This document shows positions 24,001 to 27,000 of a stretch of 64,000 bases of DNA, in pieces. The stretch lies in assembly GCF_055900595.2 (NCBI RefSeq), contig NZ_CM148325.1; one strand, given 5' to 3'. Position numbers: made by a program. Position 1 is the stretch's first letter. Every line of letters starts with the position of its first letter.

Positions 24001-27000
24001 TCGGAGTCAGTCGCCGTTGGGCAAAAAATTGACAATATAAGTCTGGATGAATTCGCAAAGGCATTAAAAAGTGTTTTGGCGAGAATTTGAGGCAGTACTT
24101 ATGCATAGTAATGCCGATCTGTTATGAACGGTGGTGCCATCAATACTCTGAGGCTGGTCAATCATCACAGAAAACCAGCCTTTGGATCAAAGCAATACTC
24201 ACCGAAAATGATCATAGTCACACCGAACGCGATTCAGGAGGAACTGTTTGGTAAATAGCACCACCGGATCTTGGGGGCGCTGTGATTATTACAGTATTGC
24301 TATCACCGTCATTTTTGAATGTCACTTTACCAGTAGCATCAACGCCTACCCAGGAGGCCGAGCTTGAAAACGAATAATCAGCCGCCGTTTTTCCTGGTGC
24401 AAAGTTGTCATTATTCAACTGATAATACGCCCCGGTAAATCCCTGCGAAGGGAATGAAGCTGTCGGTAGGTTTGCACCATTCACTGACACTGTACCGGTC
24501 ATTGGTCTGGTTTCCGCGCTAATGAATTCTATCGTGGTACTCAGGCCCGCCTGATGAACACCATTCAATACGGGGATCAGCGTTGCGATACCCTCTCCGT
24601 CTCCTGTAACAGTAGCTTTGTAATCACCGTTGATATTTTGACTGTAATCAATTGCGCTAATTTTCATATAGGGCACGTTTGTACCTGATTGCACAAATTC
24701 CATCCCTTCAGAAACTTTGATCGGATTGCCTGATATATCGTGCAGAACAAGATGTAGCTCAGCACTATCGGTAAAGTCCCCTTTCAGTGATGACTGGTTG
24801 TTCTTAAGGATGGACTGCGAGGCGTCTGCTGGGACTGCCACTAGCGATATATCTACTGTTTGCATTCCACCTGCGCTTGTGACTGTGCTTACAGTGACGC
24901 TCCCCGTTATCGCTCCTTTCACGCTTGTTGTCGCGATTCCGTTTTGATCGGTCACTGCTGTTAATGACGTTAATGTGGTGGAGCCGCTTTTTAAGGCGAA
25001 GTACACAGTGAGACCTTCGATCAGGTTACCACTGCCATCCTCAACCGTTGCCTTTAAGGTACTTAAATCACTGTTGGTGGCGGCGATAGTCGACGGATCA
25101 GCGATAAAGCTAGCAACATGTGCGGTGCTTGGGTTGCCAGTAACCTTCACGGTTGTCTGTGTCTGTATTGTGACGCCGTTATGGAACGATGCAGTCACCG
25201 TATATGTACCGACTTTATTGCTGGTCAGAACGACTGGAGCCTGACCTGAAGAGTTGGTTCTCACTTTTCCGCCACTTAACGTCGCACCTTCTAGCGTTAC
25301 GCTAAAGTTGATGACCTGACCCTCCACTGGAGTGCCATTTGCAGAGGTTAGCGTTGCCGTCAGAGTAGCGCCTTTAGGAGCATTGACACCGATAAGCGGA
25401 CTGGACGTGAGTGTCAGTTTTTCATCAATAGCCTCCAGTTGTTTCTCAAGTGAAGCTCCATTCGCTAGGGATGCTTTTACAGTATACGAGCCGTTTCTTT
25501 CAGGCGTCATGGTGACCTCGGCTACTCCCTGCGTATTAGTAGAGACCGTATTCTGGCTGATGATCATTTGCGAGGATGGCGCTGCACTGAATGTCGCGGG
25601 TTGATGCGTCACCGGGTTGCCAAACTGGTCGTTAACGTGAGCTTTAACTGCTATGTCTTGTGCGACCATGACCTGACCTTCAGGTATCTCCTGACTGGTA
25701 ATCGTCGCAGAATTAACATCTACCTTGGCATTCAGTAATCGCGAGATGACTTCAGTAGGTTTATCTGCCAGAGAGGCTGAAACTGTTTTTAGTCCGACCT
25801 CGGTGCTTGTCACAAGAATTTCAGCGAAAACCTGATCATCCGTTTCAACGCTGGTGCTGCTTAGCGTGACGGAGGTTCCACGGAAATTAACTTTTATACC
25901 TTCTACTGGGTTGCCGTTTCCATCAGTCACTGTTGCCTGTAGCCTGGTCATTCCAATGTTATTGGCGATGAAATTGTCCTCGGTAACGTTAAGATTAACC
26001 TGCGCAGTGAGCGTATCCGCAGTAAAGTTCACCACCAACTGCTCACTCTTACCGCCAACCATCGATGCTGTCACGGTATGAGCGCCTGCTTTTGTACCTT
26101 TCAGCGTGACTTTCGCTTTGCCATCGGCATCAGTAACCGCTTTGTCGCCATCGCTCAGCGTGAAGTTCGCCTTCACATCTTCCGGTAGAGTAAATGTTAC
26201 CTCAGTGTTGGCTATCGCATTGCCCTCTGTATCAGCGACGGTGCTGTTAGTGTCGTGAGATCGTTATTGTCGGCAATCACCGGATCCTTCGAGGCTGCCA
26301 GCGTGATTTCAGCATTCGTGACGTTCGGCACATAGTTCACTGTTTGTTGCATCGAATCGCCATTTTCGAGGGTTGCCGTCACGGGAGTTCTTCAGGCTGA
26401 AATCTTCATCCACGCCCAGCGTGATTCTTGCGGTACCGAAGCGGCTTAACCAGTCTGTCATTACCCCTGAAGCCTGAGAAGAGGCCCATCCACGTGCTAT
26501 GTTTGCCGCTTGCTCGCTGTTCATATCTTCGGCGAGCAGAGATCCAATTAGCTGTGAAGTACTGGCTATCTGTTGCTCAAGGTTGCCACTGCTGTTACCC
26601 GGCGGCGGGGTTAAATTTTTTTCACTAACTTGTGCCTGGACATCCAGTTCATCACCCGGGCGGACATTACGAACAAACGTACGAAACTGGTTGAGTTTGC
26701 GTAACAGGGGGGTATCTATAATTTGTTGCACAGGACAAATATATCTGGCTTCTGTACAGAGTCTTAAATTTTGACCATAAATAAAACCGTCCCTGTCAAG
26801 CATGCATAGTTTATCAAGTAGGTCTCCCACAAACTGCCTGAATTTTATTTTCCATTAAAAGTTTGTATCTTCTTAAGTATCACAGGAGACTGGAAATAGA
26901 CCGATAGTAGGATGTTGCCACTCAAGGCATGACGATAAATATCGCTAGGAGTAATTTTTTGTTTTATGGCTTTGGTAGTGATCTCAACTGCTTCCGTTAT

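What the first reader, a model, noticed from the sequence alone, without database searches (positions are those of the whole stretch)
24218..26830. yeeJ inverse-autotransporter adhesin reduced to a frameshifted, internally deleted pseudogene
The N-terminal 173 codons (LysM-like region and start of the beta-barrel) end at a stop. Over 26176-26310 the reading frame changes twice before continuing as bacterial Ig-like repeats (652 codons). The total span is about 870 codons against 2358 aa recalled for K-12 YeeJ, so the beta-barrel translocator and many repeats are missing. The surface adhesin next to the HPI is therefore probably non-functional in this strain.
Basis: partly seen in the sequence, partly recalled or inferred. 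Interest (0 to 1): 0.4.

Follow-up and report, generated by a model that had tools for sequence, protein, structure and literature searches.

The report
Dead yeeJ adhesin remnant beside HPI
This is the wreck of the E. coli surface adhesin gene yeeJ, cut down when the neighbouring yersiniabactin island (HPI) became fixed in the chromosome; about 2,000 of 5,426 complete E. coli genomes carry the same wreck, so it is real but ordinary and already described in outline.

Summary
The finding is real. Window 24246-26705 (minus strand) holds about 35% of yeeJ and cannot encode an adhesin.

Measured against K-12 yeeJ (2339 codons), the lesions are:
- **5' loss:** codons 1-73 (signal peptide, half of LysM) and the promoter region are gone. 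They are replaced by the fyuA-side end of the HPI, fused in frame at 26705 to codon 117 of a 179-aa island ORF.
- **Internal deletion:** 3693 nt with 1 filler base at 26382. It removes about 215 of the 279 beta-barrel profile positions and most Ig repeats, and it shifts the frame.
- **Frameshift:** a 1-nt deletion at about 26243.
- **3' deletion:** at 24246/24245, removing the C-type lectin cap and the stop codon.

The architecture is not strain-specific. It occurs in 2037 of 5426 complete genomes, about 91% of those carrying this HPI end. No genome has the island junction together with an undeleted barrel. Other lineages carry extra nonsense and frameshift mutations, which indicates neutral decay.

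It matches the unique HPI right-border deletion reaching into the backbone (Schubert 2009) and the truncated yeeJ reported by Martinez-Gil (2017). This lineage adds a 1-nt deletion at 26852.

The parts
26706..27057 (-). Island-derived 5' part of a chimeric ORF: codons 1-117 of a 179-aa HPI ORF that lies downstream of fyuA.
   Evidence: It is 97-98% identical to P0002 (179 aa) and to a Yersinia pestis partial protein, P0003. In ICE-type HPI contigs the ORF sits between fyuA and an AlpA/xis-VirB module. DNA identity to L006 is 98.3% and ends at the junction.
26852..26852 (-). Lineage-specific 1-nt deletion (one A of an A run). It splits the otherwise continuous 249-codon chimeric ORF into an 89-codon and a 173-codon ORF.
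   Evidence: The A is present in ATCC 8739 and all 7 other remnants compared. It is absent only in the window and TUM1886.
26704..26706 (-). Junction J1 between the HPI and yeeJ. 26706 is the last island-only base, 26705 (G) is shared, and 26704 is the first yeeJ-only base. The junction fuses island ORF codon 117 in frame to YeeJ Leu74.
   Evidence: Three-way alignment of window, ICE-type HPI and K-12; translations.
26383..26705 (-). yeeJ 5' fragment, K-12 nt 219-550 (residues 74-184). It holds the second half of LysM and the first ~60 positions of the beta-barrel domain. A 9-nt in-frame indel relative to K-12 lies at about 26670.
   Evidence: blastn and global alignment, 95.0% identity. Pfam IAT_beta positions 3-64 of 279.
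26382..26382 (-). Junction J2: a single filler base (G) replaces K-12 yeeJ nt 551-4243 (3693 nt). Net loss is 3692 nt, which shifts the frame.
   Evidence: Junction alignment. The same junction is in all 8 other remnants. Every island-side hit stops at this base.
26244..26381 (-). yeeJ nt 4244-4382, readable only in the second frame (the 56-codon ORF).
26243..26243 (-). 1-nt deletion (K-12 nt 4383; AA reduced to A) that moves the yeeJ frame back to that of the first ORF.
   Evidence: Global alignment. No indel relative to the window at this site in any of the 8 other remnants.
24246..26242 (-). Ig-like repeat block (5 Big_1 / Invasin_D3 stretches plus Invasin_D4), corresponding to K-12 nt 4384-4718 and 5001 to about 6690. 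Two 3-nt in-frame indels.
25908..25937 (-). J3: a 312-nt (104-codon, in-frame) repeat-unit difference from K-12, with crossover in the shared AACGGCAACCC. The E47 allele is collinear here, so this is allelic repeat-number variation and not necessarily a lesion.
24245..24246 (-). Junction J4: the 3' deletion. Relative to the E47 allele, 763 bp are lost (the last 337 nt of the CDS plus 426 bp downstream). Relative to K-12, about 453 bp are lost (the last ~114 codons and 110 bp downstream).
   Evidence: No Intimin_C or lectin match in the remnant.
24218..24245 (-). Former intergenic DNA read through to the first in-frame stop (TGA at 24218-24220).
27708..29729 (-). fyuA, the last intact HPI gene. 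It marks the island side of the scar.
22830..24090 (+). yeeL (glycosyltransferase family 9), the backbone neighbour. It is interrupted by IS1 (about 23059-23826) with a 569-bp adjacent deletion.

Best explanation
This is an inherited genomic scar, not a working gene.

Shown:
- The HPI sits at asnT (58155-58230). Its fyuA-side border has lost the attR repeat, the xis/AlpA gene and everything beyond codon 117 of a 179-aa island ORF.
- The same deletion runs into the backbone. It removes the asnT-yeeJ intergenic region (and so the promoter) and yeeJ codons 1-73.
- The surviving yeeJ DNA carries a 3.69-kb internal deletion (most of the barrel and the N-terminal repeats), a 1-nt frameshift and a 3' deletion (lectin cap and stop codon).
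- No product with a signal peptide, a complete barrel or a complete passenger can be made, so no YeeJ can be exported or displayed.

Inferred:
- The composite scar arose once, in the lineage where the HPI became fixed.
- It has since spread through E. coli together with the island by homologous recombination of the flanking DNA.
- It is now decaying neutrally.
For: Breakpoints are mapped at base resolution against K-12, E47 and an ICE-type HPI.

Domain content:
- The remnant matches IAT_beta profile positions 3-64 of 279.
- It has no LysM hit and no lectin hit.

Origin of the DNA upstream of the junction:
- The 117 residues upstream of the junction are 97-98% identical to an island ORF. In ICE-type HPI that ORF is followed by AlpA, TraR, SLT and VirB genes.
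- There is no orphan copy of the 17-bp asnT repeat. The only 4 matches lie inside the 4 tRNA-Asn genes.

Population counts in 5426 complete E. coli genomes:
- 2037 hold at least 80% of 24100-27200 in one collinear place, and 1959 records match at 99% identity or better.
- The HPI end itself is in 2268 genomes, 2229 of them at 80% coverage or more.
- 0 genomes have the island junction followed by an undeleted barrel.
- 0 genomes have the internal deletion with an intact yeeJ 5' end.
- Remnants form a tight group at 99.0% identity or better. The nearest sampled full-length alleles are at 93.7% or lower.

Evidence of neutral decay in 8 other remnants:
- All 8 share all junctions.
- They add 3 different nonsense mutations, a -1 frameshift and a +6 insertion.
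- The Ig block shows 15 synonymous, 23 nonsynonymous and 3 nonsense variable sites.

Literature:
- PMC2606025 reports a unique fyuA-border deletion that also affects the adjacent backbone in all HPI-positive ECOR strains except ECOR31, and spread of the island with its flanks by recombination.
- PMC5595812 links the asnT/HPI site to the many truncated yeeJ genes.
Against: - The order of the four lesions cannot be resolved, because no genuine intermediate was found.
- The parental intact allele was not found, so J2's single filler base and the exact deleted lengths are stated relative to non-parental alleles.
- pN/pS within the remnant group is about 0.57 on a sample of 8 genomes. That is relaxed but not demonstrably 1.
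- 73 records at 95-99% identity were not inspected.
Confidence: 0.93

Rival explanations
1. It is an intact, naturally shorter yeeJ allele, and the frame changes are sequencing or assembly errors.
For: Repetitive adhesin genes are sometimes misassembled, as PMC5595812 notes for upaH.
Against: - The sequence is identical in TUM1886 and differs by 1 nt from ATCC 8739.
- The same junctions and the same -1 are in 8 of 8 other genomes and in about 2000 complete genomes.
- Even with the frames repaired there would be no signal peptide, only 22% of the barrel profile, no lectin cap and no native stop codon.
Confidence: 0.01
2. The remnant ORFs have been kept because they do something. Candidates are the 652-codon Ig-repeat ORF and the 249-codon island::yeeJ chimeric ORF that is intact in most HPI-positive strains.
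For: - The junction fusion is in frame.
- PGAP annotates the 249-aa ORF as a protein in many genomes.
- The Ig frame stays open for 652-681 codons in this strain and in ATCC 8739.
Against: Ig ORF:
- It is broken by independent stops at 26101, 24916 and 24709 and by a -1 at 24370 in 7 of the 8 genomes sampled.
- The protein database holds a 378-aa truncated version with 330 member sequences.

Chimeric ORF:
- It shows 2 synonymous against 7 nonsynonymous variable sites.
- Its start is shifted in 3 genomes.
- It is frameshifted in this window.
- Its N-terminus (MSKKYQPLLITHYMSTW...) has no signal-peptide-like hydrophobic stretch.
Confidence: 0.03
3. The internal deletion, frameshift and 3' deletion predate island insertion. 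On this reading yeeJ was already a pseudogene in the recipient, and the HPI border deletion only added the 5' truncation.
For: Three assemblies (HS-02, VE-V11-M, BHUCD01) appear to combine an intact 5' end and barrel with the remnant-type 3' part, including J3 and J4.
Against: - In HS-02, the segments absent from the remnant (yeeJ nt 1-218 and 551-4243, 3911 nt) have 0 differences from MG1655. Neighbouring segments have 8-75 differences per kb.
- BHUCD01 is 4,641,498 bp with MG1655-like coordinates.
- This is the signature of reference-guided consensus assemblies filled in with MG1655 sequence, not of true intermediates.
- With those set aside there is no evidence on the order of events either way.
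Confidence: 0.15

Closest known systems
Unique right-border (fyuA-side) deletion of the 'normal-type' E. coli HPI (Schubert et al. 2009, PMC2606025)
   Same: - The island is at asnT.
- The flanking direct repeat is lost.
- The deletion extends into the adjacent backbone.
- The same pattern occurs across unrelated strains, and the flanks travel with the island.
   Different: Nothing differs in kind. This analysis adds the base-level junction (island ORF codon 117 fused to YeeJ Leu74), the three further yeeJ lesions, and counts in 5426 genomes. This lineage also has a private 1-nt deletion at 26852.
Full-length YeeJ of E. coli K-12 MG1655 (Martinez-Gil et al. 2017, PMC5595812)
   Same: - Orthologous locus between asnT and yeeL/shiA.
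- 92-95% nucleotide identity over the retained 35%.
- Same Big_1 / Invasin_D3 / Invasin_D4 repeat types.
   Different: It lacks the signal peptide, half of LysM, about 78% of the barrel profile, most repeats, the lectin cap, the promoter region and a continuous frame.
ICE-type HPI (ECOR31 ICEEc1 / Klebsiella ICEKp-like), as in contigs L005 and L006
   Same: 98-99% DNA identity from fyuA up to the junction at 26706.
   Different: The ICE type continues with the rest of the 179-aa ORF, an AlpA/xis gene, DUF2857, TraR, Hha, SLT and VirB genes. All of these are deleted here.

Membership tests
Functional inverse autotransporter (type Ve) adhesin YeeJ | N-terminal Sec signal peptide | tested here: not met
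   K-12 residues 1-73 have no counterpart, because homology starts at nt 219. The island-derived N-terminus MSKKYQPLLITHYMSTW... has no hydrophobic signal-like segment.
Functional inverse autotransporter (type Ve) adhesin YeeJ | Periplasmic LysM domain | tested here: not met
   The 49-aa LysM spans K-12 residues about 51-99, deduced from the delta-LysM primer in PMC5595812. It is cut at residue 73/74. There is no Pfam LysM hit in the remnant even at E up to 10.
Functional inverse autotransporter (type Ve) adhesin YeeJ | Complete IAT_beta (PF11924) translocator barrel | tested here: not met
   Only profile positions 3-64 of 279 are matched. K-12 matches positions 2-279.
Functional inverse autotransporter (type Ve) adhesin YeeJ | Passenger of Big_1 / Invasin_D3 Ig-like repeats | tested here: met
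   5 Big_1 and 5 Invasin_D3 stretches plus Invasin_D4 in the 652-codon ORF. K-12 has 14 Big_1 stretches.
Functional inverse autotransporter (type Ve) adhesin YeeJ | C-terminal C-type lectin-like cap | tested here: not met
   There is no Intimin_C match. The 3' deletion at 24246/24245 removes the last ~112-114 codons.
Functional inverse autotransporter (type Ve) adhesin YeeJ | One continuous reading frame | tested here: not met
   Three frames are needed, with shifts at 26382 and about 26243, plus 26852 in the island-derived part.
yeeJ locus (orthology by position and sequence) | Lies between asnT and yeeL-shiA-amn, with nucleotide identity to K-12 yeeJ | tested here: met
   Synteny is shown. 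Identity is 92-95% over nt 219-550, 4244-4718 and 5001-6677.
'Normal-type' fixed E. coli HPI (Schubert 2009) | Inserted at asnT | tested here: met
   tRNA-Asn at 58155-58230 lies next to int and mtfA.
'Normal-type' fixed E. coli HPI (Schubert 2009) | Loss of the fyuA-side direct repeat (attR) | tested here: met
   The 17-mer CCAGTCAGAGGAGCCAA occurs only inside the four tRNA-Asn genes, even allowing 2 mismatches.
'Normal-type' fixed E. coli HPI (Schubert 2009) | The deletion extends into the backbone, with the same junction across strains | tested here: met
   J1 lies inside yeeJ. It is identical in 8 of 8 other genomes. All island-side hits run through J1 and stop at J2.

The most novel reading that the evidence does not exclude
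The in-frame fusion of the truncated 179-aa island ORF to YeeJ residues 74-184 gives a 249-aa chimeric ORF. It is intact in most HPI-positive E. coli, although broken in this window. It might be an expressed cytoplasmic protein that has acquired some role.
Probability: 0.03. Interest if true: 0.35.

Novelty: already known. Interest (0 to 1): 0.1.

Why it matters
It matters little beyond annotation hygiene.
- HPI-positive E. coli (about 40% of complete genomes) cannot make YeeJ. Adhesin or biofilm inventories should therefore score yeeJ as absent in these strains.
- RefSeq's 'inverse autotransporter beta domain-containing protein' and 'Ig-like domain-containing protein' entries at this locus are fragments of one dead gene.
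- The composite scar is a convenient base-exact marker for the single-origin, recombination-spread 'normal-type' HPI.

Tried and rejected
1. **Closer intact parental allele, via protein search of the C-terminal 220 aa.** Only remnant-type proteins at 98-99% and partial YeeJ proteins at 88% or lower were found. No parent was identified.

2. **E47 allele (L007) as a better reference.**
   - It is more distant overall (80-94% identity).
   - It is collinear at J3 and gives a clean J4.
   - I kept it only for those two junctions.

3. **Chimeric queries for intermediate states.**
   - J1 with an undeleted barrel: 0 genomes.
   - J2 with an intact 5' end: 0 genomes.

4. **HS-02, VE-V11-M and BHUCD01 as intermediates.** I rejected them as reference-guided mosaics. 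HS-02 has 0 differences from MG1655 in exactly the 3911 nt that remnants lack, against 8-75 differences per kb next door.

5. **Strain 1008S13, which looked like a remnant without the island (H70).** It is a secondary IS1-mediated loss of the island core, with an int fragment left at asnT.

6. **Pfam on the island-derived 117-179 aa ORF.** No family was found.

Full report
**Context**

The feature lies on the minus strand. The order of genes in window coordinates is:
- shiA, 21199-22515.
- yeeL (glycosyltransferase family 9), interrupted by IS1, 22830-24090.
- The yeeJ remnant.
- About 1 kb of island DNA.
- fyuA (27708-29729), ybtE, and the rest of the yersiniabactin island, up to int and tRNA-Asn (asnT) at 58155-58230.

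K-12 MG1655 has asnT-yeeJ-yeeL-shiA-amn with no island.

**Observation**

The first and third are in the same frame modulo 3.

**Mapping against full-length yeeJ**

The reference is K-12 yeeJ, L003 4996-12015, 2339 codons. blastn and global alignment give three retained blocks:

| Window | K-12 yeeJ nt | Identity | Notes |
|---|---|---|---|
| 26705-26383 | 219-550 | 95.0% | One 9-nt in-frame indel |
| 26381-25921 | 4244 to about 4705 | 95.4% | One 1-nt deletion at about 26243 |
| 25920-24262 | about 5018-6676 | 92.8% | Two 3-nt indels |

About 2.46 kb, or 35% of the gene, survives. This agrees with the 35% coverage reported for remnant-type hits.

**Junctions**

- **J1 (26706 | 26705 | 26704).**
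  - Island sequence ...GATACCCCCCTG meets yeeJ ...(G)TTACGCAAACTC, with one shared base.
  - On the island side this is codon 117 of a 179-aa ORF (P0002). It is 97-98% identical to the window, and a partial copy is annotated in Yersinia pestis.
  - In ICE-type islands that ORF follows fyuA. It is followed by an AlpA-type gene, DUF2857, TraR, Hha, SLT and VirB genes.
  - On the yeeJ side the junction is Leu74. Lost are the signal peptide (residues about 1-27), the first 23 residues of the 49-residue LysM domain, and the whole asnT-yeeJ intergenic region (the PMC5595812 primer design).
  - The fusion is in frame. In ATCC 8739 and most other strains it yields a 249-codon ORF, which PGAP names 'inverse autotransporter beta domain-containing protein'.
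- **J2 (26383 | G at 26382 | 26381).** K-12 nt 551-4243 (3693 nt) are replaced by one base. This removes about 215 of the 279 barrel profile positions and the N-terminal repeats, and it shifts the frame.
- **The -1 at about 26243.** This brings the yeeJ frame back to that of the upstream ORF.
- **J3 (about 25908-25937).** This is a 312-nt in-frame difference from K-12 at a shared AACGGCAACCC. The E47 allele is collinear with the window here, so I treat it as allelic repeat-number variation.
- **J4 (24246 | 24245).**
  - Relative to E47, 763 bp are missing (the last 337 nt of the CDS plus 426 bp downstream).
  - Relative to K-12, about 453 bp are missing.
  - The lectin cap and the native stop are gone, and the ORF ends 28 nt into former intergenic DNA.

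**Domain content**

- The 173-codon ORF matches only IAT_beta positions 3-64 of 279.
- The 652-codon ORF has 5 Big_1 / Invasin_D3 stretches and Invasin_D4, and no Intimin_C.
- No LysM is detectable.

**Not strain-specific and not an error**

- The 3101-nt region is 100% identical in TUM1886 and differs from ATCC 8739 by one base.
- 2037 of 5426 complete genomes hold at least 80% of it in one collinear place.
- The island end with the fyuA 3' end is found in 2268 genomes, 2229 of them at 80% coverage or more.
- The Ig block splits sharply into remnants at 99.0% identity or better (2017 genomes) and full-length alleles at 93.7% or lower in the sampled rows.
- K-12-length yeeJ (80% coverage or more) is in 1665 genomes.
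- A synthetic query joining island + yeeJ 5' fragment + K-12 barrel found 0 genomes covering 80% or more. Every island-side hit stops at J2, and every barrel-side hit starts at J1.
- The converse query (K-12 5' end + J2) also found 0.

**Neutral decay**

Eight other remnants (ATCC 8739, 1008S13, Combat2C1, E15, 98192, CE0026a, S103EC, O104:H4 FWSEC0009) share J1, J2, the -1 and J4. They add further lesions:
- Nonsense mutations at 26101, 24916 and 24709.
- A -1 frameshift at 24370.
- A +6 insertion at 25167.

Variable sites in the Ig block number 15 synonymous, 23 nonsynonymous and 3 nonsense, against a 1:3 ratio of site types. That gives a pN/pS of about 0.57. The chimeric ORF shows 2 synonymous and 7 nonsynonymous sites, a start-shifting +A in 3 genomes, and the -1 at 26852 in this window. 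Nothing suggests selection for either ORF.

**Island immobilisation**

- No orphan copy of the 17-bp asnT repeat exists in the window.
- The xis-type gene seen in ICE-type islands is beyond the breakpoint.
- The int start codon reads ATA, and PGAP calls the identical TUM1886 gene a pseudogene.

**Literature**

[quoted passage not shown] The deletion removes the direct repeat and also affects the adjacent genome. The island spreads with its flanks by homologous recombination.
- PMC5595812 (Martinez-Gil 2017) finds intact yeeJ in 40% of 96 genomes. It notes many truncated copies, lists CFT073 as yeeJ-negative, and attributes this to the asnT/HPI site.
- PMC6714894 gives 35% intact in 126 genomes.

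The present result is therefore the base-level description of a known phenomenon.

**A trap**

HS-02, VE-V11-M and BHUCD01 look like island-free intermediates, with an intact 5' end and barrel joined to a remnant-type 3' part. In HS-02 the 3911 nt that remnants lack are identical to MG1655, while adjacent segments differ at 8-75 sites per kb. BHUCD01 has MG1655's length and coordinates. I conclude these are reference-guided consensus assemblies and I exclude them.

**Verdict**

The 5' and 3' truncations, their cause and their population-wide inheritance are added. Novelty: already known. Interest: low.

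Noticed in passing
window 22830-24090 (IS1 at about 23059-23826): yeeL (glycosyltransferase family 9) is split by an IS1 element. Compared with the otherwise 100% identical TUM1886 locus, the window also lacks 569 bp of yeeL next to the IS1 (L001 8143-8711). This looks like an IS1-adjacent deletion.
   Followed up: partly
window 26852: A 1-nt deletion in an A run of the island-derived ORF. Among the genomes compared it is shared only with TUM1886. It breaks the 249-codon chimeric ORF that is intact in the 8 other remnants examined.
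   Followed up: yes
window 57991-57993 (minus strand): The HPI integrase reads ATA where the start codon is expected (HISLTDAKIR...), although the rest of the frame is open. PGAP marks the identical TUM1886 gene as a pseudogene. Together with the loss of attR and xis, the island looks doubly immobilised.
   Followed up: partly
window about 27411-27423; L006 5427-5634: Between fyuA and the 179-aa ORF, the ICE-type island carries about 208 bp that the window lacks, flanked by a 13-nt overlap. A few E. coli genomes (H61 and H62) have a similar ~220-bp extra piece annotated as a hypothetical protein.
   Followed up: no
L015 (HS-02, NZ_CP172818.1) 9640-16051; also NZ_AP027978.1 and NZ_CM183442.1: These 'complete' RefSeq assemblies appear to be reference-guided consensus sequences. 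In HS-02, the segments that HPI-positive strains lack are base-identical to MG1655, while neighbouring DNA differs at 8-75 sites per kb. They can mislead searches for evolutionary intermediates.
   Followed up: partly
L004 (1008S13, NZ_CP147053.1) 10512-12807: This river-water strain has lost the whole island core by an IS1-associated deletion. What remains is asnT, an int fragment, IS1, the last ~215 bp of island DNA and the yeeJ remnant.
   Followed up: partly
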